63,970 nt of DNA, filler included, from Candidatus Woesearchaeota archaeon (GCA_018399355.1; 9 parts of 9 records of this genome joined end to end with filler, not necessarily neighbours in it); one strand, 5' to 3'; positions 4,400-39,136 are shown, counted from the whole stretch's first letter. The notes: a model not told the origin generated them from the sequence alone. A program made the numbers and translations.

Positions 4400-4602
4400 G
4401 GGCCCGTGGTCTAGTGGCTATGACATCACCTTGACGTGGTGAGGATCCCCGGTTCAAAACAAATGGTTACGCTCATTTGATACGCAAGGGCAGGCATTGA
4501 ATTAAAAATTCAAGCCCACCGAGCTCGCTAACGCTCGCATAAAATACAAGTTTTAGCTTAAAATCAAAGATGTAGCATTTGGTGAAAGTCCGGGCGGGCC
4601 CA
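4400..4602 (+). tRNA. tRNA-Val(GAC) with 130-nt intron in the T-loop at position 59/60 (intron 4459-4588)
   Basis: GGGCCCG/CGGGCCC acceptor, TCACC-TT GAC GT-GGTGA, T-stem CCCGG/CCGGG; removing 4459-4588 gives the T-loop TTCAAAT; BHB-like TTCA/TGAA helix with AAA and AGT bulges. Confidence 0.88.
4460..4538 (+). repeat. Structured ~80-nt element, copy 1 (inside tRNA-Val intron)
   Basis: Near-identical to 38999-39076(-): GGTTACGCTCA..ACGCAAGGGC..TTGAATTAAAAATTCAAGCCCACCG.GCTCGCT..CGCTCGC. Confidence 0.9.
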
Positions 4603-4604
4603 TA

Positions 4605-4667
4605 CAGCTTCTTGCTAAGTTGGCATGCAAGTCTAGCATAAAACTGGACGTGCTCACTGAAGCTTGC
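4605..4667 (+). repeat. Structured element, copy 2 (2 nt downstream of tRNA-Val), shortened and degenerate
   Basis: CAGCTTCTTGCTAAGTTGGCATGCAAG...CGTGCTCACT, matching 38879-38957(-) CAGCTTCTTGCTAAGCTGGCACGCAGG. Confidence 0.8.
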
Positions 4668-4776
4668 AAGCTAAAAATAAGAGGTGTGAAAAATCAGAAA
4701 GATTAAAGACGACTTATCAAAATATTTTATTCTTTTAATCTTTATTGTATTTATCCTACTTACATTTATCATCTTA

Positions 4777-5751
4777 ATGCCTTATATAACTACTATTCTT
4801 ACCAGCGCTATAATCGCCTACCTTTTCTTTCCATTGTATAAATGGATTCTAAAAAAAACAAAAAGAAAAAACCTTTCTGCAACTATTGTCATGGTTTTGA
4901 TTGTTATTCTTTTGCTTATTCCCTCTATTTTCATTATAAATTTATTTACAAGAGAGATAAGCTCTGTTTATTTTGGAGTTAGGAGCAGGATACAGCAGGG
5001 CAATATAATTGGAGAGGATTACCAGGATGACCCATTAACTGAAAAGGCAAATTATTTTTTGGTTGATTTGATGAAAAGGCCTGAATTCCTAAATTATATA
5101 GACAGGGCAATAAATTCAATAATAGGTACTCTATCAACATTTATTGTTACAATACCAAAAAGAATAGTGAGCTTCTTTGTAATGATGTTTCTTTTATTCT
5201 TCTTTATAAGAGATGGTGAGTTGATTATACAGAAGTGTGAAAAGTTTGTTCCAATAACAATAAAACACAAAAACCAGGTTGTGAAAAAATTTGGAGATGT
5301 GACTCATGGAGTGATATATGGATATTTTTTAACATCATTAGTTCAGGGAGTAGTTGGATTAGTTGGACTTTATACATTTGGAATAAGCTCTCCTTTGATA
5401 TGGGGTATAGTGATGATGATAGCTGCCATGATACCCTTTGTAGGAGCTCCGGTTGTATGGATTCCTTTGGGTGTTGTAAAGCTTATACAGGGAATAACAG
5501 CAGGAAGCACATTAGGAATACTTCAGGGAGCAGGGCTTTTGCTTTACGGATTTTTGGTAATTTCAACAATTGATGACATAGTAAGGCCAAAGATAATCGG
5601 CCACAGGGCAAAAATCCATCCTGTTGTAATACTTCTTGGAATAGTGGGAGGGGTTTCAACTTTTGGCTTTATAGGCTTGTTTGTTGGACCTTTAGTTCTT
5701 TCACTTTTATTAACGTTTATAGAGATATACAAAAATGAAACTCAAAGTTAA
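4777..5751 (+). CDS. AI-2E family (PerM/UPF0118) transporter; true start probably upstream near 4693
   Basis: Multi-TM; IPFVGAPVVWIP, STIDDIVRPKIIG, IHPVVILLGIVGG..FGFIGLFVGP motifs; the frame is open upstream to 4690 and encodes an extra TM. Confidence 0.9.
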   Translation: MPYITTILTSAIIAYLFFPLYKWILKKTKRKNLSATIVMVLIVILLLIPSIFIINLFTREISSVYFGVRSRIQQGNIIGEDYQDDPLTEKANYFLVDLMKRPEFLNYIDRAINSIIGTLSTFIVTIPKRIVSFFVMMFLLFFFIRDGELIIQKCEKFVPITIKHKNQVVKKFGDVTHGVIYGYFLTSLVQGVVGLVGLYTFGISSPLIWGIVMMIAAMIPFVGAPVVWIPLGVVKLIQGITAGSTLGILQGAGLLLYGFLVISTIDDIVRPKIIGHRAKIHPVVILLGIVGGVSTFGFIGLFVGPLVLSLLLTFIEIYKNETQS

Positions 5752-7231
5752 GGACATGGACATAGCAACAGGCCTGCCCCTTGTTGCAATAGTAAACAAA
5801 AAAGATGCAAATAAGCTTGACCTCTATTATGAAGACAGGATTCTTATAAAAAAAGGCAAGCAGTGCGTTGTTGCCATAACTAATATCTCAGAATCAAACA
5901 AGTTTGTTCCAGAGGGAAAGATAGGACTTTGTGAAGAGGTATTGAAAAAAATTAATTCAAAAACAGGCGACAGTGTGAATATATCAATTGTCTCTAGGCC
6001 TGCATCGCTTAGTTATATCAGAAAAAAGCTTAACAAAGGAAAACTAAGCTATAAAGAATTTTATGAAATAATACAGGATATAATAAACAACAGGCTAAGC
6101 CAGGTTGAGACAGCTTATTTTGTGGCTGCATGCTACACCCATGAGCTTGATTTAGAGGAAAGCGTTTCTTTGACCAAGGCAATGGTAAACACAGGAGAGA
6201 TATTAAAGCTGAAAAAATATCCTGTGATGGACAAGCACTGCATTGGCGGTGTTGCTGGAAACAGGACAACAATGATAGTGCTGCCCATAGTTGCTGCAGC
6301 AGGGCTTGCAATGCCAAAAACATCCTCAAGAAGCATAACAAGTCCTGCAGGAACAGCAGACACAATGGAAGTTCTTGCCAATGTAAATCTTTCTGTGAAT
6401 GAAATGAAGCATATTGTTGAAAAAATCAACGGCTGTCTTGTCTGGGGAGGTTCATTAAACCTTGCTCCTGCTGATGACAAGATAATAAGAGTTGAGCATC
6501 CTCTTTCATTGGATCCTGTTGGGCAACTGCTTGCGAGCGTCCTTGCAAAGAAAAAATCTGTTTCAGCAACCCATCTTCTTATTGACATACCTCTTGGAAA
6601 GGGAGCAAAAATTGAAACAAGAAAAAAAGCCATGAAGTACAAAAAACTTTTTGAAGAGATATGCAAAAAGCTGGGAATACAAGTTAAGGTAATAATAACA
6701 GACGGCTCTCAGCCAATTGGAAACGGAATTGGGCCATCGTTAGAGGCAAGGGATATTTTATGGGTTTTGAAAAATCATCCAAATCAACCTTATGATTTAA
6801 GAGAAAAGTCATTAAAAATGGCTGGAATCATGCTTGAGATGGGGAAAAAGGCAAAAAAAGGCCAGGGTTATAAAAAAGCTCTTGAGATTCTTGAATCAGG
6901 AAAGGCGTATGAAAAGATGAGCGAGATAATAAAAGCACAGGGCGGAAAAACAATAGGCCCTGAGAAGATAAAGGTTGGAAGATTAAGGCATGATTTTAAG
7001 GCAAAGAAAAATGGCACTATTTTGCATATTGATAACAAGTCCATATCAAAAATAGCCAGAGCTTCAGGAGCTCCTCAAAGCATTGCATCAGGAGTTTACA
7101 TTCACAAGCATGCTGGCCAAAAAGTGAAAAAACATGAAAAGATAATCACAATATATTCTGAAAACAAAAGTAAATTGAATTATGCTGTTGAGATTCTTGA
7201 TAAAATCAATGGAATTAAGGTTGTTTCCTGA
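5735..7231 (+). CDS. AMP phosphorylase (thymidine phosphorylase family)
   Basis: DKHCIGGVAGN, PKTSSRSITSPAGTADTMEVLA, WGGSLNLAPADD; N-terminal extra domain typical of archaeal AMP phosphorylase. Confidence 0.9.
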   Translation: MKLKVKDMDIATGLPLVAIVNKKDANKLDLYYEDRILIKKGKQCVVAITNISESNKFVPEGKIGLCEEVLKKINSKTGDSVNISIVSRPASLSYIRKKLNKGKLSYKEFYEIIQDIINNRLSQVETAYFVAACYTHELDLEESVSLTKAMVNTGEILKLKKYPVMDKHCIGGVAGNRTTMIVLPIVAAAGLAMPKTSSRSITSPAGTADTMEVLANVNLSVNEMKHIVEKINGCLVWGGSLNLAPADDKIIRVEHPLSLDPVGQLLASVLAKKKSVSATHLLIDIPLGKGAKIETRKKAMKYKKLFEEICKKLGIQVKVIITDGSQPIGNGIGPSLEARDILWVLKNHPNQPYDLREKSLKMAGIMLEMGKKAKKGQGYKKALEILESGKAYEKMSEIIKAQGGKTIGPEKIKVGRLRHDFKAKKNGTILHIDNKSISKIARASGAPQSIASGVYIHKHAGQKVKKHEKIITIYSENKSKLNYAVEILDKINGIKVVS

Positions 7232-7760
7232 AAAGCTCTGGATTTTCAAGGTGGATTAAGGCCATGATAATTGCCTGCTCTGTGTAGTCTTTTCTTGTGA
7301 TTCTTCCTTTTGTAAGATAACCTACAACTCCTTCAGAATATCCTATTCTTTTGTTTTCTGTAAGTTTTGTTCTGTGCATTGCCTCATCTATTTCAATATT
7401 TTCTGACAAGACAAGCTCTGTGACCTTTAAAGGATATTCAAAGCTTGATGACAAACCAAGGTGAAAATCTTTTCCGTCATAGATTGCGCATGCAGTAACA
7501 TCCATATACCCTGATTTTGTATAAGGCACTTCCATTAAGCCGCTCTCTATGCCGAAGCTGTAATCGCAGTTTTCAAATGAGTTTTCAGCTCTTTTCATAG
7601 CTCCATTTATTGTTTCTTTCAATGACTTAGGCTGGTTGTCAACTCCTGAGTCTGCATCAAATGAAACAAGTTCTGCATCACAGAAAAGCTTATATTTCAT
7701 TACAGCGTCTTTCACAGCATCAAGCTTTATCTTGTTTTTTGAGCCAATGTTAATTTTCAT
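7215..7760 (-). CDS. yjjX: Inosine/xanthosine triphosphatase (YjjX family)
   Basis: GSKNKIK, SGVDNQP, ETINGAMKRA, FGIESG, GVVGYLTKGRITRKDY. Confidence 0.88.
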   Translation of the reverse strand: MKINIGSKNKIKLDAVKDAVMKYKLFCDAELVSFDADSGVDNQPKSLKETINGAMKRAENSFENCDYSFGIESGLMEVPYTKSGYMDVTACAIYDGKDFHLGLSSSFEYPLKVTELVLSENIEIDEAMHRTKLTENKRIGYSEGVVGYLTKGRITRKDYTEQAIIMALIHLENPELFRKQP

Positions 7761-7934
7761 AAAAAAATAAGAATAAATCACTTTTATAAATTTAATGATT
7801 TAACAAAACAGAAGTGCTGTATACTAATTTGTAACCACTTACTTGTGACAAAAAACAAAACATTTATATAGTAGTAATGCTACTAATATTGTAGTATAAA
7901 CTATAATATTAAAAGAAGATGAGGAGGGATAAAC

Positions 7935-8501
7935 ATGGTAAATCTTGAAGATTTAATGGGAAAATTTGGAGAGATAGATAAAATTAACAAAGACCTTTAT
8001 TTCAGGGCACATGGATCAGTATCACATTACATAGAAGATAATGGAAACAGTTGGAGCAATCTTAATGAGCAGCAGCAAAGAGAAGCAGCAGAAAAATACA
8101 AAAATGGATTTAATAAAGGAATTATAGATATATCCCAAGTAACAGCAGGAAATGAAATTGGAGAGGCATTGATTTCAAACTTTGGCAATTTTAGTGAAGA
8201 GCATGTTAAAGCAATTCAGAAAGATCCTGTTAGTGGTATTTCACAGGCTTATCAGCATGGAACAAGAAGTATAAATTCAAAACTGTCTGATTTGGTAAGA
8301 AACGGGTTTCAATACACAGATATACCTGCATTGGTGCAGGAAGTTAGTAGTTACGCGAATGTTCCTCTTGACGCAAACAAGGTTGAAACAAAGGATGTTA
8401 TGATTGGATTGTTAAGCTCATGCTACGGGCTTAAAAAAGGAAATGAACAGATGAGAGATGAATTTAAACCTTACATGCCTGATCCACAACCACAGGAATA
8501 A
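7935..8501 (+). CDS. Hypothetical protein
   Basis: 188-aa ORF with GAGGAGG RBS, upstream TATA-like TTTATATA and downstream T-tract; no motif recognised. Confidence 0.7.
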   Translation: MVNLEDLMGKFGEIDKINKDLYFRAHGSVSHYIEDNGNSWSNLNEQQQREAAEKYKNGFNKGIIDISQVTAGNEIGEALISNFGNFSEEHVKAIQKDPVSGISQAYQHGTRSINSKLSDLVRNGFQYTDIPALVQEVSSYANVPLDANKVETKDVMIGLLSSCYGLKKGNEQMRDEFKPYMPDPQPQE

Positions 8502-8612
8502 TTTTTTATTTTTTTATTTTTTTTCATCCTAAACATCGAAATACTTTCTTTTTTCTTTATGATATTGATTGTATCCTAAAAACATATTCATTTTTAATAG
8601 CATAAAAATGAC

Positions 8613-8712
8613 NNNNNNNNNNNNNNNNNNNNNNNNNNNNNNNNNNNNNNNNNNNNTTAATTAATTAANNNNNNNNNNNNNNNNNNNNNNNNNNNNNNNN
8701 NNNNNNNNNNNN
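8613..8712. other. Artificial contig linker
   Basis: N44-TTAATTAATTAA-N44 (stops in all six frames). Confidence 0.98.
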
Positions 8713-8857
8713 GCATGAGGGCGCTGTAAACACCAAAAGATGCCGGCCCCAAAACCTTAGCAATAATCAACCCTGTCAAGACAGAAAAGAAATAAGCACT
8801 GTATCTTGCTATTGTAAATATTGATGTGTCTCTTATTATCTCTTTTTCATTGGCCAT
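8713..8857 (-). CDS. Oligosaccharide flippase (Wzx-like), N-terminal part, truncated at contig end
   Basis: IIRDTSIFTIARY...IIAKVLGPASFGVYS is a typical Wzx N-terminus. Confidence 0.75.
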
Positions 8858-8936
8858 CTTAGAACTATCCCAGGATAATCAAAAATCTTTATAAACTTAA
8901 TGATTTATTTTTTCATATTGATTGCAGCCAAAAACT

Positions 8937-10400
8937 TTAATCTATCCTGTAAACATAACTAAAAGGCCTATTTCTTGTCTTATAAACTTCTTTAAGCTGG
9001 AAATTTGTAATTTCAGTTATTCTTTCATCGGGCAAATCTGAGATTATAAAATCAGGTTTTTGTTTCTGCCAATCAACGTAAATAAGCTTGTTATCTAAAA
9101 AATCCTTAACAAAATAACCATGTATAGTCATTCCTTCTTCTCCTTCTAAAAAGATAATTGAGACTTTCGAGTTTAGTAAAATATTTCTATTTGCCCATTC
9201 TATAGCTTGGGCCCTGTGCTCAGACCTTTGAGAATAAATTGAAGGTAGGGGAATCACTTTATCAATTGAGTCCTTAAAAGAGCCATAGCTTAATACTGCA
9301 CTTAAGAACATAAAGCTAACCAAGCACAAAATGATAAGGATAAATTTAAAATTTTTTGATTTAAACCTTAATCTTTTAAAATCAAGAAAAGCAAAAATAG
9401 TCAGTATTGGAATAAGGGGTGTTAGGTATCTTGTCCTTGACATTATAACGTGAAATACTGATGATGGATTATAGTTTAATGCTATATGCGCAAAAATAAA
9501 GATTATGCAATTTCCAATAACTAAAAGCCAAAAAGTATCTTTTTTCTTCCAAGCAAATGTTGCCCTCTTTAAAATAAATGGAAGAAGAAAGGAAAAAGTC
9601 AACAATATCGCAATAGTATAAACAACAAACATGTAAGGTATTTTTACCCAAAATGATAAAACCTCTGAATAACCACTTCCTTCTGGAAATAGTCCCTTAA
9701 ATATTATTACATTCCTCAAAATCCAGAGACAAACAGGCAATGATGCTGCCATAACAAAAGAAATATTTTCTATTATCTTCTCTCGCCTAAAGATATTATA
9801 CACGCTGAATAAGACAAATAAAATAATAAAAAAACCAGAGGTAAATCTTGTGATTATAGCCAGCCCAAAAATAAGTCCAGCTAATAAGTAAGATGATAAA
9901 CTCTTTTTAAGAAAATAAATAAGAATACCTAAAATTAACAAGAAACTAGCTAAACTCTCTGAAAGAGGCAATATTCCATTAAAATAAAAAAACCAAGGGT
10001 TAAACAATACTAGTAATGATACAAAAAAGCTTTCTGTTCTTTTTATTTTTAAAAACCTTGAAAAAAGATAAACAAAAACAATGGTAAGTGAACTCCAAAA
10101 TATTGCAGAGAATTTTATTGCATAAACAGATTTTCCAAATATAAGAAAGAATGGAACACTGAATAAAGGAAATAATGGAGGATAGTTACCATGAGGTAAA
10201 TCACTACCAGAAGAAATAGGGCTTGAATATGCGAAGTTAGTAGCAATATGTTCAGTAAGTTCAGCATAGTAATTGCTATCGCCAGAGATAGGATAATTCC
10301 AAGAAGGTATTTTTGTAGCAATAGCTAAAATAAAAAGAAACAAGATGATATAAAAATCGAATGAGTGTGTTTTAAGTAATGATTTTTTAATATTGTTCAT
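8937..10400 (-). CDS. GT-C (ArnT/PMT_2-like) membrane glycosyltransferase
   Basis: GDSNYYAEL, YPPLFPL, LSESLA, GLAIITR, RYLTPLIP motifs; many TMs. Confidence 0.8.
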   Translation of the reverse strand: MNNIKKSLLKTHSFDFYIILFLFILAIATKIPSWNYPISGDSNYYAELTEHIATNFAYSSPISSGSDLPHGNYPPLFPLFSVPFFLIFGKSVYAIKFSAIFWSSLTIVFVYLFSRFLKIKRTESFFVSLLVLFNPWFFYFNGILPLSESLASFLLILGILIYFLKKSLSSYLLAGLIFGLAIITRFTSGFFIILFVLFSVYNIFRREKIIENISFVMAASLPVCLWILRNVIIFKGLFPEGSGYSEVLSFWVKIPYMFVVYTIAILLTFSFLLPFILKRATFAWKKKDTFWLLVIGNCIIFIFAHIALNYNPSSVFHVIMSRTRYLTPLIPILTIFAFLDFKRLRFKSKNFKFILIILCLVSFMFLSAVLSYGSFKDSIDKVIPLPSIYSQRSEHRAQAIEWANRNILLNSKVSIIFLEGEEGMTIHGYFVKDFLDNKLIYVDWQKQKPDFIISDLPDERITEITNFQLKEVYKTRNRPFSYVYRID

Positions 10401-10473
10401 ATTAAATCAAAATTCTTAAGAGATATATAAATTTATGTAAATGACCAATTAAGATTAACTTAAAAATAAAAAA

Positions 10474-11751
10474 TTATCTTCCAATTCCCTTATATACAAT
10501 ACCAAGAACTTTAATCCTCTCCTTATCAAGGCAGTTCTTTCCATCTATAACTACCTTAACGTCTTTTTCTTTTAACATAATAGGCCTTAATGCCTTAAAC
10601 TCAGGATGGTCTGTTGCAATGACAATGCACTCTGCATCAAGGGCCTCATCTAAATCTTTAACTGTTGACTTATCCAGAATATAAGGGTCAAACACCTTTA
10701 AATCTGCCCCTAAATTTTCAAGCTCTTTAATAATTTCAAGAGCAGGGCTTTCTCTCATATCATCCACACCGCCCTTGTAAGCCAATCCAAGAACAGTTAT
10801 CTTTGTATCCTTAACAGATTTATCAATCTCATTAAGTCCCTGAATAACCTTCTCAACAGTGTAATGCGGCATGCTGTTGTTTATTTCCCTTGTAAGATTT
10901 AAAAACTGGTGGGTAAAGCCGTTTTGCCTTGCCCTGCTTATCAGATAATAAGGGTCAACCTTTATGCAATGGCCTCCAACGCCGCATCCGGGCCAATGCG
11001 GCATAAAACCAAATGGTTTTGTGCTAGCTCCCTTAATAACCTCTGTAACATCTATCCCCATTTTGTCAAATGATTTCGCCATCTCATTCACAAAAGCTAT
11101 ATTGACGTCCCTGAATGTATTTTCCATTATCTTTGTTGCCTCTGCTGCCTTAATTGAGTTTAGTTCAAGAACCTCAGAGCTTGTTAATGTGCGGTAAAAT
11201 TCAGATGACATTTTTAGTCCCTCAACACTTAAAGCGCCTATAACTCTTGGAAGGTTATTTACATTCCATTTTTTATTTCCCGGATCAACCCTTTCAGGGC
11301 AGTAAGCCAGATAAAAATCCTCTCCCGCTTTTAATCCTAATTTCTCTAAAATCGGCTTGACAATCTCTTCTGTTGTTCCTGGAAATACAGTTGATTCAAT
11401 AACAATTAAATCTCCTCTCTTTAAATTTTCAGAAACTGTTTTTGCAGCTTTTTCCAAAGGCTTCAAATCAGGATTATAATGTGCATCTATTGGCGTTGGA
11501 ACGCATATTATGATTATATCAGCCTCTCCAATTACTTCAGGATTAGTTGCAACATCTATCTTGTCCTTAAGCTTATCAAGTTTTTCTTCAAGAAATTTAT
11601 CTTTTATAGGGCTCTTGCCCTCGCTTATAATCTTAACTGATTTTTCATTTATATCAAAGCCGTATGTCTTATAACCTTTTTCAATGCAAAGGCACAACAA
11701 AGGCAGTCCTACATAACCCAAACCAACGACACAAACCTTCCTATTTAACAT
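10474..11751 (-). CDS. Nucleotide-sugar dehydrogenase (UDP-N-acetylhexosamine 6-dehydrogenase, WecC/WbpA-like)
   Basis: GLGYVGLP, ICVPTP, ESTVFPGTT, CPERVDPG, GVGGHCI, GLAYK. Confidence 0.92.
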   Translation of the reverse strand: MLNRKVCVVGLGYVGLPLLCLCIEKGYKTYGFDINEKSVKIISEGKSPIKDKFLEEKLDKLKDKIDVATNPEVIGEADIIIICVPTPIDAHYNPDLKPLEKAAKTVSENLKRGDLIVIESTVFPGTTEEIVKPILEKLGLKAGEDFYLAYCPERVDPGNKKWNVNNLPRVIGALSVEGLKMSSEFYRTLTSSEVLELNSIKAAEATKIMENTFRDVNIAFVNEMAKSFDKMGIDVTEVIKGASTKPFGFMPHWPGCGVGGHCIKVDPYYLISRARQNGFTHQFLNLTREINNSMPHYTVEKVIQGLNEIDKSVKDTKITVLGLAYKGGVDDMRESPALEIIKELENLGADLKVFDPYILDKSTVKDLDEALDAECIVIATDHPEFKALRPIMLKEKDVKVVIDGKNCLDKERIKVLGIVYKGIGR

Positions 11752-31669: not shown

Positions 31670-31710
31670 AATATGATAGTAAAAATAAAGTAACTATTTA
31701 AACCTTTCTA

Positions 31711-31723: not shown

Positions 31724-31788
31724 TTATATAAAAATTTAGTAAAATAACTGTTATATATTTAAGAAATAAAAAAGATTAATATAGAGAT

Positions 31789-31801
31789 TATGTCCGACAA
31801 A
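31789..31801. promoter_or_regulatory. Palindromic operator candidate 2 (TATGTCCGACAAA)
   Basis: Reverse complement of site 1 except for the central base. Confidence 0.55.
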
Positions 31802-31858
31802 AATTAAATTTAAATATCTTTGTTTAGCCTAAAAAATATCTTGAGAGAGGTTAATAAA

Positions 31859-32947: not shown

Positions 32948-33049
32948 AAGAAAAAATAAAATATATATAAATAACAATTTGTTTAATAATCTTTTGAGGA
33001 ATATTTTTGTACAAATAAAAAAACGCCAAAAAGGCGTTTTTGTGGACCA

Positions 33050-33149
33050 NNNNNNNNNNNNNNNNNNNNNNNNNNNNNNNNNNNNNNNNNNNNTTAATTA
33101 ATTAANNNNNNNNNNNNNNNNNNNNNNNNNNNNNNNNNNNNNNNNNNNN
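33050..33149. other. Artificial contig linker
   Basis: N44-TTAATTAATTAA-N44. Confidence 0.98.
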
Positions 33150-33150
33150 G

Positions 33151-33987
33151 TATATCTCAATACAATACCTTGAGGTAGTGCCCTTTGTGGATAAAATAAT
33201 TTACTATTTATTGTTAGCGCTTTTAGGAGTTTACATCGCTAAAGGAACATCTAAAGCAATAAATCATTTTGTGGAAAAGCAAATAAAAAAAGAGAATGAA
33301 AAGGAAAAAGGGACTAAAAGGTCAGGGTCCATGATAAAGGTCTTGGGAGTGATTGCAAAAGTGATTATATGGTCTATTGCCCTTCTTATGATTCTCTCAA
33401 ACATAGGTATAGAAATAACTCCTCTGATTGCCAGCGCCGGAGTAGGGGGAATTGCTGTTGCCCTTGCATTACAGTCTGTTTTAGGAGATTTGTTTGCAGC
33501 TTTCATAATTTACTTTGACAAGCCATTCAAGGAAGGTGATTTCATTATCATAGGAAATGATATGGGTGTTGTGAAAGAGATAGGTCTTAAGTCCACAAGA
33601 TTACAGGCATTGGGAGGACAGGAACTTATTATGTCTAACACAGAGCTTGTTAACTCAAGGATAAACAATTACAAACAGATGCAAAAAAGAAGAATAGTGT
33701 TTGGTTTTGGAGTCAAGTATGATACAGGCGAAGCAAAGCTGAAAAAAATAAAGAGCATAGTTACTAAAATATTTAAAAGCGTTAAAGATGTTGACTTTAA
33801 CAGGGTTCACTTCAAGGAATTTGGGGATTTCAGTTTGAATTATGAAGTTGTTTATTATGTTGATAAATCAGACTATAATATTTATATGGATAAACAAGAA
33901 GAGATTAACATGAAGATTTATTCTGAATTTGAGAAAGCTGGGATAGAGTTTGCATTCCCAACACAGACAATTGAAATACATAAATAA
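33151..33987 (+). CDS. mscS: Small-conductance mechanosensitive channel MscS, 5'-truncated
   Basis: LIASAGVGGIAVALALQ, DKPFKEGDFI, IGLKSTR, GIEFAFPTQT. Confidence 0.92.
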   Translation, partial: YISIQYLEVVPFVDKIIYYLLLALLGVYIAKGTSKAINHFVEKQIKKENEKEKGTKRSGSMIKVLGVIAKVIIWSIALLMILSNIGIEITPLIASAGVGGIAVALALQSVLGDLFAAFIIYFDKPFKEGDFIIIGNDMGVVKEIGLKSTRLQALGGQELIMSNTELVNSRINNYKQMQKRRIVFGFGVKYDTGEAKLKKIKSIVTKIFKSVKDVDFNRVHFKEFGDFSLNYEVVYYVDKSDYNIYMDKQEEINMKIYSEFEKAGIEFAFPTQTIEIHK

Positions 33988-34069
33988 AGATTTATTCTGA
34001 CCTTATTTATAATAACAAAAAATAAGATAATTATTAAGTTAGAAAAAACTTTAGATTAAAAATTTACCT

Positions 34070-34360
34070 CTAACTTTTGAAATTTACATTTATAGAATTT
34101 GCAACATTATGAATATAACTTTTTATTTTCTTTTCCAAATCTTTGCTGCAATTTTTATCATATTCTATAGCTATATGGTTTTTCTGGTTTAAATAATTCA
34201 ATCTTATATCAAACAGGCTAGAATTATTCTCATACAATTTAATTTTGTTTTTATCTTTAAGAAAATAAGTTTTATAGCCTTGCATTTCAGCAAAATCATC
34301 TAATACCCTTTTTATTTCTCTTGAACCAACATCTCTTTCAAATCTAATCTCTCTAATCAT
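34070..34360 (-). CDS. Hypothetical protein
   Basis: 96-aa ORF with upstream TATA-like TTTAAA. Confidence 0.5.
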   Translation of the reverse strand: MIREIRFERDVGSREIKRVLDDFAEMQGYKTYFLKDKNKIKLYENNSSLFDIRLNYLNQKNHIAIEYDKNCSKDLEKKIKSYIHNVANSINVNFKS

Positions 34361-34430
34361 TTTATATAGCTATTTAGATTTGTTTAAATATTTTATTGTA
34401 TTCCAGCAAACATAAAAATATCCTAGCTTT

Positions 34431-34601
34431 TTATTTCCTTTTTTTCATATTCTGAACCATTGCGCCGAAAACAATTCCCAGGCCTGTGCCAATAGGAGCA
34501 ATCCAGAATTTATCCATAATTATAAAGCCAAAAACAAATCCTATTGCACTGCCCATTATAAGACCAAGGCCAACATAATTTATGTCTTTTTTGCTGTCCA
34601 T
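34431..34601 (-). CDS. Small two-TM Gly-rich membrane protein (56 aa, not in ORF track)
   Basis: MDSKKDINYVGLGLIMGSAIGFVFGFIIMDKFWIAPIGTGLGIVFGAMVQNMKKRK; starts 2 nt after the PspC-gene stop. Confidence 0.7.
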   Translation of the reverse strand: MDSKKDINYVGLGLIMGSAIGFVFGFIIMDKFWIAPIGTGLGIVFGAMVQNMKKRK

Positions 34602-34603
34602 TT

Positions 34604-35596
34604 TTAATATTCTCTTACAAGTTCAGCGTATTCAATATGTAGTATATCATAATCCAGGACCAAGGCAGAAACCTCAAAGCCATAAACAATTTCTGGAAGC
34701 TCATCGCTGTCTATATAAAACCTGTACTTAAGCTCATAGCAGTTTTGCTTTAAGTGGGCATCTTGCCCTGCAAACCCTTCACATTTATTTTTCTCAACCA
34801 TGCTTAACCCGAGGTACTCCAATCCGTATCCATTATTAGCTGCATAGTTGTGGCTGTTCATTATCCTTACTTCAAGCCCTTCCCTTACCTTATTTATTCT
34901 TTCATTAAATATATTCTCAGGGACAAATTCTATAGCCTTGATTCCTTCATCACTTATTATAACCCTTTCATTAACAGCAATTCCTTTTCTGTCAACTGAT
35001 ATTCCTGAATCAGCAGTTTTATACAAAAAAAACGAGAAAAATGCAGTCAATAAAAGAAGAAAAACAACTCCTGCTAGAATCACAAAAAGCAAAACAAGGC
35101 CTTTGTTGCTTTTTTTATTTGATTTATCTGAGTTTTCTTTTTGCCCGGGCTCAATAGGAATAATTAGCCATGCAATCAGATAAGCCAAAAACGTTGAGCC
35201 ATTAATAAAAAATAAAAGCACAACAGCCAACCTGATGAAGGTAGGATCAGTATTAAAGTAATCTGCTATTCCACCGCAGACACCGCCTAAAACCTTATCA
35301 TTCCTGCTCCTGAAAAGCCTTTTTGCCTTGTCTTTTACCTTAGAGCTTGAGTTTTGATTGGTTTCCAAACCAGCACCTTTTTTACTAAAATTAAATGCAA
35401 GGTAGATAATTGCTCCGAGAACATTCAAAAATATGATTACCAGTATCCATATAAGTTTTTCAGACGTTTCTCTCCTTGAGCCAATGCAGTCAACCAATGC
35501 CCAAATCCATAAGAATATTGAAATAATTGCAATTGAAATGATTATGCTTGCAAATGCACTAATTCCCAAAAAATTACGTATCATTATCATCACCAA
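34604..35596 (-). CDS. PLDc_N + PspC domain membrane protein
   Basis: LWIWALVDC...KLIWILVIIFLNVLGAIIY (PLDc_N); LFRSRNDKVLGGVCGGIADYF..DPT..R...AYLIAWLIIP (PspC). Confidence 0.88.
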   Translation of the reverse strand: MVMIMIRNFLGISAFASIIISIAIISIFLWIWALVDCIGSRRETSEKLIWILVIIFLNVLGAIIYLAFNFSKKGAGLETNQNSSSKVKDKAKRLFRSRNDKVLGGVCGGIADYFNTDPTFIRLAVVLLFFINGSTFLAYLIAWLIIPIEPGQKENSDKSNKKSNKGLVLLFVILAGVVFLLLLTAFFSFFLYKTADSGISVDRKGIAVNERVIISDEGIKAIEFVPENIFNERINKVREGLEVRIMNSHNYAANNGYGLEYLGLSMVEKNKCEGFAGQDAHLKQNCYELKYRFYIDSDELPEIVYGFEVSALVLDYDILHIEYAELVREY

Positions 35597-35693
35597 AATA
35601 AATAAAGCATAGCTTATTTATAAATAGTATGAAAAACAAATACAGAGGATTAATACATAAAGGTTTTTAAATAATGCAATTATAATATATAAA

Positions 35694-36356
35694 ATGGCAA
35701 TAATTGATAATTTCCCTTTAATTGAATTCATATATTCATGCCTTATAATATTTCCAAGCCTTTTGATTTACATTAAAACAAAAAAAATTTACAACTTCAA
35801 AAAGCACACAGGAGTAAGATATTTCAGTAAGGCCTTTCTATTTTTTGCAATCTCTTTTTCAATAAGGTTTATCTATTTTATTTCACAAAGCTATTCAGAA
35901 TCTTCTTTATCTAAAATAATACTTTACAATAATTATCTCCTCATATTGTTTGAATTATTTTTCCTTGTGCCGGGATTTTACTTTTTTATGAGCCTGACAT
36001 ACAAAAAATTTGGAAGATACAGGAGATTAGCATGGTGCCTTGGAATTGTTTTTCTGTTTTTGGTATCATTAGTTGACTATTTCACTTACACTTTTCTTCT
36101 TATGTATATAGTTTCAATAGGTCTTTTCTCAATGAACTCTTTTATCAGCTACAGAAACTACCAGAAAAAGCCAACAAAATACGGCCAGATTTATTCAACT
36201 GCAATGGTCTTGCTTTTAATCTCATGGATACTTAATTTTTCAACGCAATATATCCTTGACAAAATTCCTTTTTTAAGGTATTATGTTTACTTTGTAAATG
36301 TGCTGGCAGTTTTGATAATGTTGTTTATTGTAAACAAAATACTTGATAATTTTTAA
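35694..36356 (+). CDS. ~7-TM membrane protein (putative sensor), paralogous to 60279..60941
   Basis: About seven hydrophobic segments; KIYNF....VRYFSKAFLFFAISF parallels KIYRI....IKLFGISFSFISISY. Confidence 0.7.
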   Translation: MAIIDNFPLIEFIYSCLIIFPSLLIYIKTKKIYNFKKHTGVRYFSKAFLFFAISFSIRFIYFISQSYSESSLSKIILYNNYLLILFELFFLVPGFYFFMSLTYKKFGRYRRLAWCLGIVFLFLVSLVDYFTYTFLLMYIVSIGLFSMNSFISYRNYQKKPTKYGQIYSTAMVLLLISWILNFSTQYILDKIPFLRYYVYFVNVLAVLIMLFIVNKILDNF

Positions 36357-36358
36357 AA

Positions 36359-36631
36359 ATGAAAAAAAGAGAAAGATTTGATGTAATAAAAGACATCCTT
36401 GAATCAATCAAGAAAAATAATGGAAAGATAAAGCCGACAAGGCTTCTATACTCTTCTAATCTATCATCACTTATGTTCAAGGATTATATCTCAGACCTTG
36501 TCAAGACAGGCCTGATAACTGAAGTCAGCAACTCAAAAAATAAAAAACATTATGAAATCACAGAAAAGGGCAATGATTTCCTCAGAAAATATTCTATGTT
36601 CAACGAGTTTGTTAGTAATTTAGGTTTATAA
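36359..36631 (+). CDS. Winged-helix DNA-binding protein (HTH_45-like)
   Basis: KRERFDVIKDIL...KPTRLLYSSNLS...Y...L...YEITEKG. Confidence 0.88.
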   Translation: MKKRERFDVIKDILESIKKNNGKIKPTRLLYSSNLSSLMFKDYISDLVKTGLITEVSNSKNKKHYEITEKGNDFLRKYSMFNEFVSNLGL

Positions 36632-36636
36632 GAAAA

Positions 36637-36759
36637 TCCCCGCTGCCGGATTTGAACCAGCAACCTTTCGGTAACAGCTGTCTGCATTTCATCCATTCTC
36701 CTTACGAGATAGTCGGGCAGAATCTACAGCCGAACGCTCTACCATTGAGCTAAACGGGG
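36637..36759 (-). tRNA. tRNA-Tyr(GTA) with 51-nt 37/38 intron (36673-36723)
   Basis: CCCCGTT/AGCGGGG acceptor (C1:G72), TTCGG-CT GTA G|A-CCGAA, GCTGG TTCAAAT CCGGC. Confidence 0.9.
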
Positions 36760-36780
36760 TCAAAAATTAAGAAAAAATCT

Positions 36781-38241
36781 TTATTTATATAGCTTTTGAT
36801 TTTTTTCATCAACAAGGTCAACTCTATTCGACCTTGTTATTGAAATCTTTCCATTTTTGTTTTCATACTTCACTATTGCAGGCCTTAAACTGAAAGGACC
36901 CAATATACTTAGCCTTGACTTTATCTTATAAGTTATCAGTCTTTCTTCAAATGCATCAAGAACATCAACATTCCACTTTACCATATTTCCTTTTTTGTCA
37001 TGCATAATTATTTTTGTGGGTTTTAAGGTTCCTATCTGGAAGTCATTTTCTATATCTGCTATATTCGGAACCCCATCTATGATTGAAACATTTTTTATCT
37101 GTCTTCCTGTCCTGTTTCTCACATTCATTATAACTTTTATCTCTGTTATTCCTCCTTCTTTTGTTCCAAGCACAACTGCCTGTTTTTTTACAATTATATC
37201 CCCTCTTAGTAAGTAATAAAGAACCAATAAGACAAATGCAAAAGCTATTACAAATGCAGGGGGCCTAAAGTTTGTAATAACCATAACCTCTGTTTTTTCA
37301 GCTGGCTTTAAATCAACATCAAGGGCCCTATATCTTTTTCCATTTTCTTTAATAACATACATTTTTGGATTTGTGGATGTAACCAAATCCTTGAAGAATC
37401 CCATCTCAATTTTTAGTGTTTCCTGTCTCTTTATATTACCATCATTCGTGTATGTTATTTTCTGCTCTGTTTTTAAAAAAGACCTTTCTTCAAAAGAAGA
37501 GTACTTTATTTCTGAGTATGAAACTACATTTACTGGAATATCTTCAACAGACCTTATTTTTTCTCCATATACATAAAGCTCTAATTTAAGAGTATCTTCT
37601 TTAGGGGGTTGCAAAGGGTCAATTGAATAGGTTATAACAATTGTTTTTTCTTCAAGGGGTTTTAAAGAAGTTACTGTTTCCTTATTTATAACAATACTTG
37701 AAAGCCTTATGTTAAGTTCAGATATATTTAATGGATTTCTGTTCTTTAAATTAACCTTTATCTGAAAGCTTTCTCCTGGCTTTATATTTTCAGGAATTTC
37801 AACATCTGCAGTCACAGTAGGAGGATAAGTTCCTGCCTTTTCTCCCGAATTTAAATAAATATGAAGGTTTATTTCTTCTAAGGCTCCTGTTCTGGTTGAC
37901 TTAACTTTTACTGGAATCCTGTACAGGCTTGGAGGCATTTCTGATACAGGCATAGCAGATATCTTGATTTTTCTTGTTGCCCCTTTTGTTACAGTTACTG
38001 TTGAATCTTTTGGTGGAAGAATCTGCATGCTCCACTTTGGGTTAATTCCAAAGCTTATTCTATAGCTATCATCAAAACTTTCATCATTGTTTATTATTAA
38101 ATAAAATTCTGCTGCCTCATTTACTACTACATTATCTTTTATTGTTTCATAATCTAATGAAAATCCTGGATTAGCATAAGCAAGAGACAAGCTAAGCAAA
38201 AGTACACCAAATATAAGAAAACTGCTTTTAAATATACCCAT
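36781..38241 (-). CDS. Secreted membrane-anchored protein with Ig-like/CARDB-like domains
   Basis: Signal peptide, beta-rich repeats, internal TM, DUF11-like VRNRTG..IKNVSIIDGVP. Confidence 0.65.
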   Translation of the reverse strand: MGIFKSSFLIFGVLLLSLSLAYANPGFSLDYETIKDNVVVNEAAEFYLIINNDESFDDSYRISFGINPKWSMQILPPKDSTVTVTKGATRKIKISAMPVSEMPPSLYRIPVKVKSTRTGALEEINLHIYLNSGEKAGTYPPTVTADVEIPENIKPGESFQIKVNLKNRNPLNISELNIRLSSIVINKETVTSLKPLEEKTIVITYSIDPLQPPKEDTLKLELYVYGEKIRSVEDIPVNVVSYSEIKYSSFEERSFLKTEQKITYTNDGNIKRQETLKIEMGFFKDLVTSTNPKMYVIKENGKRYRALDVDLKPAEKTEVMVITNFRPPAFVIAFAFVLLVLYYLLRGDIIVKKQAVVLGTKEGGITEIKVIMNVRNRTGRQIKNVSIIDGVPNIADIENDFQIGTLKPTKIIMHDKKGNMVKWNVDVLDAFEERLITYKIKSRLSILGPFSLRPAIVKYENKNGKISITRSNRVDLVDEKNQKLYK

Positions 38242-38319
38242 TAACTACCACCGCTCTTATTTATAAATGTTTAATATAGTATTTTATATATAAATCTTTC
38301 TAAAGTAAAACACAAATTA

Positions 38320-38856
38320 TTAACCAAACTCTTCTTTTAACAGGCCATATCTTAATTCATCACAGTATCTTCCATTCTGGAACCTGTGTTTCCTTAATCT
38401 TCCTTCGTATTTAAAGCCGAGTCTTTCAAGAACCTTTGCAGAATCAGTGTTTTCATGGTTAAGTTTTGCAAATATTCTTCTGAAGCCCAATTTATTAAAT
38501 CCAAAACCAACAATTATTTTTGCTGCCTCAGACGCATAACCCTTTTTTCTGAATGGTTTTCCAATCCAATATCCAAGCTCTGCATTTTTATTTTTGTAAT
38601 TTATGTTAAATAAAGAAACCATTCCAATTATTTGGTTATTTAATTCTATTCCAAGGCCATACTCTTCTTTTTTCTCGAGTTTTTCTCTGTTTTTCTTTAT
38701 AAAACTTAAAGCATCTTCAATTTTGTAAGGATAAGGAATATGTACTGTATATTTGCTTATTGATTTATCCTGGGCATGTTCTTTAATTGATTCAGCATCC
38801 TTAACTTCAGGAGTTCTGAGATTGATCCTTTTTCCTTTTATGAAAATTTTTTCCAT
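38320..38856 (-). CDS. GNAT N-acetyltransferase (RimJ/RimL family)
   Basis: AELGYWIGKPFRKKGYASEA, ENTDSAKVLERLGFKYEGRLR; ATG at 38856. Confidence 0.9.
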   Translation of the reverse strand: MEKIFIKGKRINLRTPEVKDAESIKEHAQDKSISKYTVHIPYPYKIEDALSFIKKNREKLEKKEEYGLGIELNNQIIGMVSLFNINYKNKNAELGYWIGKPFRKKGYASEAAKIIVGFGFNKLGFRRIFAKLNHENTDSAKVLERLGFKYEGRLRKHRFQNGRYCDELRYGLLKEEFG

Positions 38857-38878
38857 TTTTCTTAGATTTAAAACTTCT

Positions 38879-38957
38879 GCGAGCGAAGCGAGCGTGAGGG
38901 ACTTCAATTGCTTTGCAATTGAATGTCGCTCCTGCGTGCCAGCTTAGCAAGAAGCTG
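38879..38957 (-). repeat. Structured element, copy 4 (2 nt downstream of tRNA-Pro)
   Basis: CAGCTT-CTTGCT-AAGCTG GCACGCAGGAGCGACA TTCAATTGC-AAA-GCAATTGAA GTCCCTCACGCTCGCTTCGCTCGC. Confidence 0.85.
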
Positions 38958-38959
38958 AG

Positions 38960-39136
38960 TGGGGCCGCCGAGACTTTCAAAAATGATTCCACTTTTTTGC
39001 GAGCGAAGCGAGCACGGTGGGCTTGAATTTTTAATTCAACGCCCGCCCTTGCGTGCCAACTGAGCGTAACCAGCTGTTTGAACTCGGGTTACCAGCTCCC
39101 CGAGCTGGAATGATAGCCAAACTACACTACGGCCCC
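38960..39136 (-). tRNA. tRNA-Pro(GGG) with 103-nt T-loop intron at 59/60 (38974-39076); unusual C33
   Basis: GGGGCCG/CGGCCCC acceptor, CCAGC-TC GGG GA-GCTGG, T-stem CCGAG/CTCGG; splicing gives TTCAAAT; intron ends TGAAAG as in tRNA-Val. Confidence 0.85.
38999..39076 (-). repeat. Structured element, copy 3 (inside tRNA-Pro intron)
   Basis: CAGCTG-GTTACGCT-CAGTTG GCACGCAAGGGCGGGCG TTGAATT-AAA-AATTCAA GCCCACCGTGCTCGCTTCGCTCGC. Confidence 0.9.

What the first reader, a model, noticed from the sequence alone, without database searches (positions are those of the whole stretch)
4460..39076. Four-copy structured element occupying identical positions inside and just behind two different tRNA genes: candidate tRNA-targeting mobile element rescued by splicing
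Seen: tRNA-Val (4400-4602,+) and tRNA-Pro (38960-39136,-) lie on different contigs but share one layout. An element copy sits at the 5' end of a T-loop 59/60 intron (4460-4538; 38999-39076), and a second copy starts exactly 2 nt after the discriminator A (4605-4667; 38879-38957). The shared fold is a short hairpin P1, then GCACG...CGTGC (imperfect in some copies) enclosing a long hairpin, then GCTCGCTTCGCTCGC. P1 covaries (CAGCTG/CAGTTG, CAAATG/CATTTG, CAGCTT/AAGCTG, CAGCTT/AAGTTG), as does the distal hairpin (TTGAATT/AATTCAA vs TTCAATTGC/GCAATTGAA vs TCTAG/CTGGA). Intron copies resemble each other, and trailer copies resemble each other, more than the two copies at one locus do. Established: BHB introns at non-canonical tRNA positions, and their spread between tRNA genes, are described in Thermoproteales. 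Inference: a non-coding, non-autonomous element or structured RNA spreads between tRNA 3' regions and is removed by splicing (intron copy) and 3'-end processing (trailer copy). No mobilising enzyme is visible here. The coordinates span the two loci only, not the DNA between them.
Basis: partly seen in the sequence, partly recalled or inferred. Interest (0 to 1): 0.9.

Follow-up and report, generated by a model that had tools for sequence, protein, structure and literature searches.

The report
Structured repeat filling tRNA T-loop introns
A conserved three-hairpin sequence sits at the start of an intron in the T-loop of many tRNA genes of this tiny archaeon and its relatives, and just behind some of them, which gives a concrete handle on how archaeal tRNA introns are copied from gene to gene.

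Summary
The element (E, 63-81 nt) has 12 copies in this 0.92-Mb genome, not four. All 12 are tied to tRNA genes. Eight tRNA genes carry E at the 5' end of a position 59/60 T-loop intron, one of them as a tandem pair, and three carry a copy 2-3 nt behind the discriminator.

E occurs in 12 of 12 other genomes of the same family. Weaker relatives occur in 6 of 88 genomes from other families of the order. There the element sits in T-loop, D-loop and 37/38 introns.

E folds into three hairpins, P1, P2 and P3. P1 and P3 are backed by compensatory changes.

The intron 3' end YGAAAG pairs with the universal T-loop TTCR. Together with P1, or a long-range helix, this builds a bulge-helix-bulge splice motif. 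The genome encodes EndA and RtcB.

Trailer copies are, at least in part, relics of duplicated intron-plus-3'-exon units. Intron contents are swapped between non-orthologous tRNA genes within one genus.

A few copies lie outside tRNA genes, flanking toxin-antitoxin and ATPase cassettes.

No Rfam family matches, no mobilising enzyme was found, and splicing is not shown. The scan noted similar elements before in other DPANN genomes. I rate this a new variant of a known kind.

The parts
4400..4602 (+). tRNA-Val(GAC) gene: 5' exon 4400-4458, T-loop 59/60 intron 4459-4588 (130 nt), 3' exon 4589-4602
   Evidence: Acceptor, T-stem and anticodon read from the sequence. The custom closure scan found the gene. 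ARAGORN and Rfam did not call it.
4460..4539 (+). E copy at the intron 5' end: P1 CAAATG/CATTTG, type-a P2, P3 tail
   Evidence: Covariance model hit of 87.1 bits, E 1.7e-17; alignment.
4576..4588 (+). Intron 3' end: CATTTG (helix B partner of the first intron hexamer), G, TGAA (pairs with T-loop TTCA 4453-4456), AG (3' bulge together with T60 at 4589)
   Evidence: The MFE fold of 4448-4594 gives helix, 3-nt bulge, 4-bp helix, 3-nt bulge, helix; z = -3.98.
4605..4668 (+). E copy in the Val trailer (type-b P2), starting 2 nt after discriminator A4602
   Evidence: Covariance model hit of 62.5 bits. Orthologous trailer copies occur in G006, G008 (degenerate) and G012; only the tail remains in G004; none in G001.
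38960..39136 (-). tRNA-Pro(GGG) gene: 5' exon 39136-39077, intron 39076-38974 (103 nt), 3' exon 38973-38960
   Evidence: The fold of 38968-39087 gives the T-stem, the 3' bulge AGU, a UUCAAA/UUUGAA helix and then P1; there is no 5' bulge, so the motif is relaxed.
38998..39076 (-). E copy at the Pro intron 5' end (P1 CAGCTG/CAGTTG, type-a P2)
   Evidence: Covariance model hit of 86 bits.
38878..38957 (-). E copy in the Pro trailer (type-c P2), 2 nt after discriminator A38960, followed by GAAG|TTTT
   Evidence: Covariance model hit of 82.9 bits. A trailer copy is present behind Pro(GGG) in G001, G002, G004, G007 and G012. In G004:C9 it is followed by a decayed second 3' exon.

Best explanation
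E is the conserved structured core of a proliferating family of protein-spliced tRNA introns specialised for T-loop position 59/60. In the pre-tRNA, T-loop nucleotides 54-57 (TTCR) pair with the YGAA that lies two nucleotides before the intron's 3' end. This forms the 4-bp central helix. A58-A59-N and A-G-T60 form the two bulges. The T-stem is one flanking helix. The other is hairpin P1 at the very start of E, or a long-range helix between the P1 5' strand and a complementary hexamer just before YGAAAG. The host splicing endonuclease (EndA) would cut and RtcB would join. Because the T-loop is nearly the same in all tRNAs, one intron design fits any tRNA gene. Copies are exchanged between tRNA genes at the DNA level, probably by recombination or gene conversion through the shared T-arm and the conserved ends of E. 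The intron-plus-3'-exon unit can also be duplicated, giving arrays of the form 5' exon-(E-3' exon)n. The downstream units decay and leave 'trailer' copies. What is shown: the anatomy, the covariation, the distribution, the arrays and the intron replacement between congeners. What is inferred: splicing itself, the route of copying, and why the loops and junction of E are conserved.
For: All six complete T-loop-interrupted tRNA genes carry E, as do two more that are cut by contig ends. Thirteen other tRNA genes have plain 7-nt T-loops. Of 156 unique hits in 14 genomes, 101 start directly after TTCRA(N). A further 23 lie deeper in a T-loop intron (two misfiled on hand check), 21 are in trailers (one misfiled), 5 follow another E, and 6 are other. 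The scan that collected the 59 T-loop introns required the 4-bp central helix, a purine-A-purine just before the last intron base, and a T or G before the T-stem 3' strand, so these features hold by construction. All 59 end AG or AA, followed by T (G in one). Helix B of at least 5 bp is present in 41 of 59, against 35% (691 of 1965) for mismatched intron pairs. MFE folds of the Val and Gly(C17) substrates give a canonical H-B3-H4-B3-H motif with z = -4.0 and -3.7. P1 and P3 covary. EndA and RtcB genes are present. Arrays with a second 3' exon occur at G001:C61, G002:C46, G004:C9 and G004:C85 (0-2 mismatches of 14, null p = 0 of 200 shuffles each), and at G005:C60 by eye. The linker of the second unit in G004:C9 resembles the first-unit linker of this window's Pro gene. 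Between G000 and G001, three of six introns are conserved (0.90-0.97) and two are replaced (0.44 and 0.71) with exons 0.96-1.00 identical. Contigs of a related strain in a public run carry a different P2 and tail in the Pro trailer copy.
Against: No RNA data show splicing, excised introns or circles. The one RNA run covers only 39131-39336. Eighteen of 59 introns have a helix B of 4 bp or less, and the Pro intron lacks a 5' bulge in the MFE fold, so cleavage would need a broad-specificity enzyme; the EndA gene is cut at a contig end and was not typed. A BHB needs only P1 and YGAAAG. That does not explain why the P1 loop, the junction GCACGCA, the P2 loop and P3 are conserved across families. 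Seventeen of 21 trailer copies have no recognisable second 3' exon. The C45 trailer copy differs from G001 without any exon duplicate. One trailer copy is inverted (G010:C70), and some copies lie away from tRNA genes. Recombination between introns alone does not predict these.
Confidence: 0.6

Rival explanations
1. E is a non-autonomous DNA-level mobile or recombination module (MITE-like or att-like). It inserts in many places and survives in tRNA genes only where its own ends (P1 and YGAAAG) create a splice motif with the T-loop. Trailer, intergenic and cassette-flanking copies are the neutral insertions.
For: Copies occur outside tRNA genes. G009:C115 carries E after a PIN toxin-antitoxin cassette and after a ParE cassette, beside an AAA_14/DUF4143 gene. 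G004:C100 has an AAA_14/DUF4143 gene between two E copies at the contig ends. G009:C5 has a tandem of E plus a 64-nt spacer. The trailer copy in G010:C70 is inverted. In 80 metagenome loci, 17 of 105 unique copies were filed 'other', and about 12 of those are non-tRNA by eye, often antisense just upstream of a ribosome-binding site. The ends are conserved and the middle is variable. Trailer copies are present or absent between close species. Contigs break at E (C48, C71, C17).
Against: No enzyme was found. IS200-type TnpA is present in 3 of 5 genomes (only a fragment in G000), and its element ends are unlike E. RT is present in 1 of 5 genomes and absent from G000. The tyrosine recombinases are not next to E. 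E has no terminal inverted repeats, no target duplication, and no uniform target sequence apart from a loose ...YNA before (A)CAGC (by eye). Two viral-contig scans gave only chance hits. The non-tRNA share is small in family genomes (5-6 of 156).
Confidence: 0.25
2. E is a functional RNA or cis-acting RNA signal, for example a protein-binding scaffold or a processing or modification signal. It would be released from pre-tRNAs by splicing and 3' processing and kept by selection, and would not merely be selfish.
For: The loop and junction sequences (P1 loop GUUACGCU, junction ACACGCAAG, P2 loop AUAAA, P3 GCUCGC) are conserved between families of the order, in introns at three different tRNA positions. 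E is always at the intron 5' end and in tRNA sense in 150 or so of 156 copies. The Pro(GGG) and Val(GAC) trailer copies are retained across genera. The NCGC motif recurs four times (by eye).
Against: The middle hairpin is freely swapped among three or more types. Trailer copies decay (G008:C33, G004:C3), are lost (G001) or are inverted (G010:C70). No Rfam family matches, and no C/D or H/ACA boxes are present. Wobble-pair evidence for the sense strand is mixed: P1 favours sense, while P2 and P3 fold better antisense, and the whole element is more stable antisense in 76 of 84 copies.
Confidence: 0.15
3. The layout is an assembly artefact of a repeat in a fragmented metagenome bin.
For: E is a repeat that breaks contigs (C48, C71, C17). 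Public-run contigs branch at E towards other tRNA genes (loose end at 39079 in run X1).
Against: The same exon-E-exon-E order recurs in independent assemblies of 12 other family genomes and in 80 metagenome loci. The G001 orthologs are 90-97% identical across whole introns.
Confidence: 0.02

Closest known systems
Non-canonical BHB/hBH tRNA introns at position 59/60, e.g. [quoted passage not shown]
   Same: The intron position in the T-loop is the same. The splice motif is bulge-helix-bulge or a relaxed form of it. The host is a DPANN archaeon with EndA. Passages read in PMC5829648 name the 59/60 hBH intron of ARMAN-2.
   Different: Here one conserved three-hairpin module fills the intron in eight tRNA genes of one genome and across a whole family, and it also lies behind tRNA genes. 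No such shared module is described in the passages I read.
Transposed tRNA-intron families of Thermoproteales (Fujishima et al. 2010, recalled; cited in papers listed; the paper itself was not read)
   Same: Related intron sequences occur in non-orthologous tRNA genes, implying copying between genes. The mechanism is unknown.
   Different: The phylum is different. The core is a strongly structured one with covariation and order-wide conservation. Arrays of intron plus 3' exon occur, as do trailer, inverted and non-tRNA copies.
tRNA gene disruption by an integrating mobile element in Caldiarchaeum subterraneum (PMC3293823, abstract read)
   Same: Duplicated tRNA fragments lie beside an intron-containing gene. 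Intron gain is linked to DNA recombination.
   Different: There a 1.8-kb recombinase-encoding element lies between the fragments. Here the repeated unit is 63-81 nt with no gene, and it is the 3' exon that is duplicated.
Integron attC sites and cassette arrays in Archaea (PMC9668308, passages read)
   Same: A structured site of 60-140 nt with conserved ends and a variable middle lies at the boundaries of toxin-antitoxin and other accessory cassettes (G009:C115).
   Different: E lacks the inverted R''/R' core pairing of its two ends (motif recalled). It folds as three separate hairpins. No integron integrase lies beside it, and about 95% of copies are in tRNA genes.
IS200/IS605-derived hairpin MITEs (PATEs; recalled)
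   Same: They are hairpin-ended, have no terminal inverted repeats, and insert in a fixed orientation.
   Different: The ends of the IS200-like elements in these genomes do not resemble E, and E has no constant target tetranucleotide.

Membership tests
Archaeal protein-spliced (BHB) tRNA intron, non-canonical position 59/60 | Removing the insert restores a canonical tRNA (7-nt T-loop, closed T-stem and acceptor stem) | tested here: met
   Val, Pro and four other complete genes close perfectly. The same holds for 59 introns in relatives.
Archaeal protein-spliced (BHB) tRNA intron, non-canonical position 59/60 | Two 3-nt bulges separated by a 4-bp helix at the exon-intron boundaries, or a relaxed hBH/HBh' form | tested here: met
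   The MFE folds are canonical for Val and Gly(C17) and relaxed for Pro. The central helix is present in all 59 introns because the search required it. Helix B of at least 5 bp is present in 41 of 59.
Archaeal protein-spliced (BHB) tRNA intron, non-canonical position 59/60 | The host encodes a splicing endonuclease and an RtcB ligase | tested here: met
   PF01974 scores 50.7 bits at C56, a gene cut by the contig end. PF01139 scores 524 bits at C6.
Archaeal protein-spliced (BHB) tRNA intron, non-canonical position 59/60 | The intron is actually removed from the RNA | not testable with these tools
   Only contigs of public runs were available. The RNA run does not cover the tRNA.
Transposed tRNA-intron families (Thermoproteales type) | Near-identical intron sequence in non-orthologous tRNA genes of one genome | tested here: met
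   The Val(GAC) and Gly(CCC) copies are 97.5% identical over 80 nt. The best match of the C17 copy is non-orthologous.
Rfam RNA families (any of 4227) | A match at the gathering score, or any credible E-value | tested here: not met
   Only tRNA hits appear in the window. On five loci at E up to 10, only tRNA partial matches and sub-threshold noise appear.
IS200/IS605-derived MITE | Ends resemble the ends of an autonomous IS with TnpA in the same genomes | tested here: not met
   The flanks of TnpA in G006:C40, G004:C74 and G000:C13 carry other hairpins. The nhmmer search with the E profile finds only the unrelated tRNA intron copy.
Integron attC site | The 5' and 3' ends pair with each other (R''/R', L''/L'), giving one long hairpin | tested here: not met
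   The covariation supports three local hairpins; P3 pairs within the tail. The long end-to-end pairing appears only in antisense MFE folds and uses different partners for P1 types 1 and 2. The attC core motifs were recalled and not scanned with the attC model.
Integron attC site | Located at cassette boundaries near an integron integrase | tested here: inconclusive
   Cassette-boundary copies occur in G009:C115. Tyrosine recombinases exist in the genomes but are not adjacent.
Box C/D or H/ACA guide RNA carried in a tRNA intron | C/D or ACA boxes and a K-turn | tested here: not met
   No boxes are visible by eye. Rfam snoRNA hits score 15-20 bits against gathering scores of 37-85.

The most novel reading that the evidence does not exclude
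E is a small DNA element that carries its own splice motif. Wherever it lands after position 59 of any tRNA gene, its first hairpin and its terminal YGAAAG pair with the universal T-loop and turn the insertion into an intron that the host endonuclease removes. The same element also serves as a portable recombination site that flanks accessory gene cassettes. That would be a direct, general mechanism for the gain of archaeal tRNA introns.
Probability: 0.25. Interest if true: 0.85.

Novelty: new variant of a known kind. Interest (0 to 1): 0.6.

Why it matters
How archaeal tRNA introns arrive at new genes is still open. [quoted passage not shown]

This family shows three things. It is one intron design that fits every tRNA, because it pairs with the invariant T-loop. 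Its contents have been replaced between congeneric species. It also leaves intermediates, namely arrays of intron plus 3' exon and intronless genes that still carry a copy behind them.

This makes the question testable with long-read population data and with a simple cleavage assay.

It also matters practically. Standard tRNA finders miss these genes, so tRNA sets of such genomes look incomplete, and the repeat breaks assemblies.

Tried and rejected
- **Rfam.** The window at gathering score and five loci at E up to 10 gave no family for E.
- **Self-splicing.** I considered a ribozyme reading, but the host has EndA and RtcB and there is no ribozyme match. I dropped it.
- **IS200/IS605-derived MITE.** TnpA is found in 3 of 5 genomes, but its element ends are unlike E.
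- **Reverse transcriptase route.** RVT_1 is present in 1 of 5 genomes and absent from G000.
- **Integrase adjacency.** Tyrosine recombinases are present in 5 of 5 genomes, none next to E.
- **Viral contigs.** Two patterns were scanned. One gave 26 loci and the other none. The covariance model scored at most 25 bits, and the best hit is a coding sequence.
- **Genome-contig scan.** The tail pattern was too loose. The one Nanoarchaeota hit is not E.
- **Public runs.** All four runs laid are contigs. They give no joint across the introns and no RNA cover of the tRNA, so they say nothing about splicing.
It is not conserved.
- **Long end-to-end hairpin ('model II').** It is favoured only on the antisense strand and is not consistent between P1 types.
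- **Pseudoknot between the P1 loop and the junction.** CUUGC/GCAAG is complementary in some copies, but there is no clean covariation (by eye). I left it open.
- **Leader-trailer pairing.** I looked by eye for a BHB at the tRNA 3' end formed by leader-trailer pairing and found none.
- **Papers.** Searches found no description of this element. Supplements were not opened.

Full report
**What the window is.** The window is nine contigs of one 918-kb, 33% GC assembly of 85 contigs, joined by N spacers. The Val locus is on contig C33 and the Pro locus on C39. The assembly is rated 97.5% complete and 0.69% contaminated. No tool named the organism.

**Checking the observation.** Both tRNA genes are real and are missed by ARAGORN and by the Rfam tRNA model because of a long insert in the T-loop.
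- tRNA-Val(GAC) runs 4400-4602. Its T-stem CCCGG (4448-4452) closes with CCGGG (4590-4594). The T-loop is TTCAAA (4453-4458) plus T4589, so the insert 4459-4588 lies between positions 59 and 60.
- tRNA-Pro(GGG) runs 39136-38960 on the minus strand, with the insert at 39076-38974.
- An element copy starts at or one base after the first intron base in each gene. A second copy starts two bases after each discriminator A.

**Copy number and distribution.** A profile and a covariance model (R1) built from the copies find 12 copies in this genome and nothing else credible; the next hit has E = 0.77. All 12 are tied to tRNA genes.
- Intron 5' ends: Val(GAC), Pro(GGG), Val(CAC) on C45, and the genes on C7, C17, C3, C71 (two tandem copies in one intron) and C48 (cut by the contig end).
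- Trailers: Val(GAC), Pro(GGG) and Val(CAC).
- A closure scan found 19 tRNA genes with T-stem and acceptor pairing. Six have a T-loop insert and all six carry E. Thirteen have a plain 7-nt loop.
- Among 100 relatives, all 12 other genomes of the same family have the element (1 to 20 matches each). Six of 88 genomes of other families of the order have 1-3 weaker matches.

**Structure.** E consists of five parts:
- P1, a 6-bp stem with a loop of GUUACGCU or CUUGCU.
- A conserved junction, G-(GC/AU/AC)-ACGCA-R.
- P2, a hairpin of at least three interchangeable types.
- P3, GCUCGC-loop-GCUCGC.
- A final A.

On 88 matches (85 distinct) aligned to the model, 98.9% of 748 cells in P1 and P3 form standard pairs, against 89.1% after shuffling. 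There are 79 cells with changes on both sides against 22.6, and 0 of 500 shuffles reach this. Sliding the partners by 1-3 columns drops pairing to 13-43%. The P3 pair at columns 78/93 is G-C in 61 rows and A-U in 17. P2 stems differ between types and between copies of one type by paired changes, for example UUGAAUU/AAUUCAA, UUGGAUU/AAUCCAA and UUGCUUA/..AGCAA (by eye).

**Which strand matters is not settled.** In P1 and P3, G·U (11) outnumbers A·C (4). However, P2 and P3 fold better as antisense, and the whole element is more stable antisense in 76 of 84 copies. I cannot explain this.

**The splice motif.** I collected 59 distinct T-loop introns from 14 genomes. In each, the four T-loop bases TTCR pair with the YGAA (or UGGA) that precedes the last two intron bases, though my search required this. 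The last two bases are AG or AA, followed by T60 (G in one intron).

The first intron hexamer is the P1 5' strand. It finds a complementary run of at least 5 bp within three bases of that YGAA in 41 of 59 introns, against 35% (691 of 1965) when 5' and 3' ends of different introns are combined. So the P1 5' strand has two possible partners: the local P1 3' strand, and a distal segment that closes the intron.

Folding the Val substrate gives T-stem, 3-nt bulge AGU, 4-bp helix, 3-nt bulge AAA and a 6-bp helix B (z = -3.98). The Gly(C17) substrate gives the same with a 9-bp helix B. The Pro substrate has the 3' bulge but no 5' bulge, and P1 stacks on an extended helix. The placement of cleavage within the bulges is recalled knowledge. 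EndA and RtcB genes are present, with EndA cut by a contig end. Nothing here shows splicing. The only RNA run found does not cover the tRNA, and all runs were available as contigs only.

**What the trailer copies are.** In relatives, the copy behind a tRNA gene is often followed by a second 3' splice site and a second 3' exon.
- G001:C61 (Pro-CGG) reads 5' exon, E, ..UGAAAA|TCTCAGCGGCCCCA, TT, E, ..UUGAAAG|TCTCAGCGGCCCA.
- G004:C85 and G002:C46 have two 3' exons with 0 and 1 mismatches and a partial third E.
- G004:C9 (Pro-GGG, the ortholog of this window's gene) has three units with a decaying second exon.

Among 21 genuine trailer copies, 4 have a second 3' exon with at most 2 of 14 mismatches within 220 nt, with 0 of 200 shuffles as good. 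Two of the 23 rows printed were invalid, and I dropped them. G005:C60 adds a case by eye: an intronless tRNA, then E, then a second 3' exon. More decayed remnants follow the trailer copies of G012:C81, G009:C46, G006:C14 and G009:C95. This window's Pro trailer copy is followed by GAAG|TTTT.

The linker of the second unit in G004:C9 resembles the linker of the first unit here. That suggests a newer unit was placed upstream and the older one displaced.

Not all trailer copies fit this picture.
- The Val(CAC) trailer copy of this genome is absent from the G001 ortholog, with no exon duplicate on either side.
- G002:C7 has an intronless Val(UAC) gene with only a trailer copy.
- G010:C70 has the Val(GAC) trailer copy inverted.

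**Exchange between genes.** I compared this genome with G001 of the same genus. Three of six introns are orthologously conserved (0.90-0.97 identity, exons 1.00). Two (C7, C17) have 0.96-1.00 identical exons but replaced introns (0.71 and 0.44), and their E parts match non-orthologous genes best; C17 is 0.94 identical to Val(GAC) of the same genome. One had no clear ortholog. Contigs of a related strain in a public run carry a different P2 and tail in the Pro trailer copy, at depth 3.2 on one contig.

**Census.** There are 156 unique profile hits in 14 genomes, 11 of them family genomes searched in full:

| Context | Hits |
|---|---|
| Directly after the T-loop | 101 |
| Deeper in a T-loop intron, after a partial P1-junction module | 23 |
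| Trailer | 21 |
| After another E | 5 |
| Other | 6 |

Hand check moved three rows. Clear non-tRNA copies are G004:C100, G009:C5 (two) and G009:C115 (two); G007:C27 is unclear.

G009:C115 is an island of accessory genes, with E after two of the cassettes and a weak third match: two PIN toxin-antitoxin pairs, a ParE pair, an AAA_14/DUF4143 ATPase, a KAP-like NTPase and a nucleotidyltransferase. G004:C100 is a 1.55-kb contig with an AAA_14/DUF4143 gene between two E copies.

About 12 of the 'other' copies are non-tRNA by eye, several antisense just upstream of a ribosome-binding site.

**Deeper relatives.** In other families of the order, the same core sits at the 5' end of T-loop introns (G021, G013, G034), of a D-loop intron (G073) and of a 37/38 intron (G086). 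The core there is P1 with loop UUACGCU, junction ACACGCAAG, P2 with loop AUAAA, and P3. Each time the intron 3' end is complementary to the local exon and to the P1 5' strand. One copy is intergenic (G027). A splice motif alone does not require this much conservation of loops and junction, so some sequence-specific partner is likely. I could not identify it.

**Mechanism and rivals.** The best-supported reading is a proliferating family of protein-spliced introns adapted to the universal T-loop. Exchange happens at the DNA level and intron-plus-3'-exon units are duplicated; trailer copies are partly relics of that process (confidence 0.6).

The main rival is that E is itself a small DNA element or recombination site that survives in tRNA genes because it brings its own splice motif (0.25). 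It explains the inverted, intergenic and cassette-flanking copies, but it lacks an enzyme. IS200-type TnpA ends do not match, RT is nearly absent, and recombinases are not adjacent. A functional RNA is possible (0.15). An assembly artefact is very unlikely (0.02).

**Comparison with what is known.** Introns at 59/60 in DPANN archaea are described (PMC5829648, passages). Intron families shared between tRNA genes in Thermoproteales are also described (recalled; cited in the listings). Four searches found no paper describing this element.

Earlier notes of this scan report similar repeat-filled T-loop introns in other DPANN genomes. All were marked as partly failing later checks, so I relied only on what I tested here.

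What I consider new here:
- The covariation-backed three-hairpin core with order-wide conservation.
- The dual pairing of its first hexamer.
- The arrays of intron plus 3' exon.
- The intronless genes that keep a copy behind them.
- The link to cassette islands.

Noticed in passing
L248 (G009:C115:1-8764), E at 2685-2747, 3569-3642, weak at 6789-6864: An accessory island in a relative. It holds two RHH+PIN pairs, a ParE pair, an AAA_14/DUF4143 ATPase, a KAP-like NTPase and a nucleotidyltransferase. E copies follow two of the cassettes, which makes the layout resemble an integron cassette array without an integrase in view.
   Followed up: partly
L081 (G004:C100, 1551 nt) and L350/L351 (one metagenome contig): An AAA_14/DUF4143 ATPase gene is bracketed by two direct E copies, antisense to the gene. 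The same roughly 35-nt sequence (ctgcggctctcggtatatggacatcgtcgatgg) follows E here and in G009:C115.
   Followed up: partly
L242/L249 (G009:C5:1-400): A tandem of E plus a 64-nt C/A-rich spacer, repeated two to three times, with no tRNA nearby. It lies next to a Schlafen/AlbA_2 gene and a zinc-ribbon plus PD-(D/E)XK nuclease gene.
   Followed up: no
window 2917-3022 (+), 36637-36759 (-), 4190-4261 (+), 46328-46402 (-): Four other tRNA genes lie in the window. Leu(UAA) and Tyr(GUA) have anticodon-loop introns of 21 and 51 nt with no E. Thr(GGU) lies 139 nt upstream of Val(GAC). The fourth is Met(CAU).
   Followed up: partly
G000 contigs C48 (1-58), C71 (end 2399), C17 (start): Contigs end inside or next to E copies, so the repeat fragments the assembly. 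More tRNA genes with E may therefore be missing from the bin. ARAGORN finds only 15 tRNA genes in a genome rated 97.5% complete.
   Followed up: partly
All E copies (alignment A3): The antisense strand folds more stably than the sense strand in 76 of 84 copies. Type-a P2 keeps a C·A mismatch in sense, which is G·U in antisense. The first two junction bases track the P1 type (GC with CAGCUG, AU with CAAAUG, AC with CRACUG). These are unexplained.
   Followed up: partly
L233 (G000:C13:5513-5842): A truncated IS200-like TnpA ORF of 109 aa, holding the first half of the Y1 domain, lies between glycosyltransferase and epimerase genes. Full copies occur in G006:C40 and G004:C74.
   Followed up: partly
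L017/L245-type introns, e.g. G005:C60, G009:C13, G004:C3: Some introns start with an extra partial P1-junction module before the full E, and long introns carry a further module (GCUCGCA-AAAA-UGYGAG hairpin plus GAUUAAAGCC). The introns are therefore mosaics of several repeat modules.
   Followed up: no
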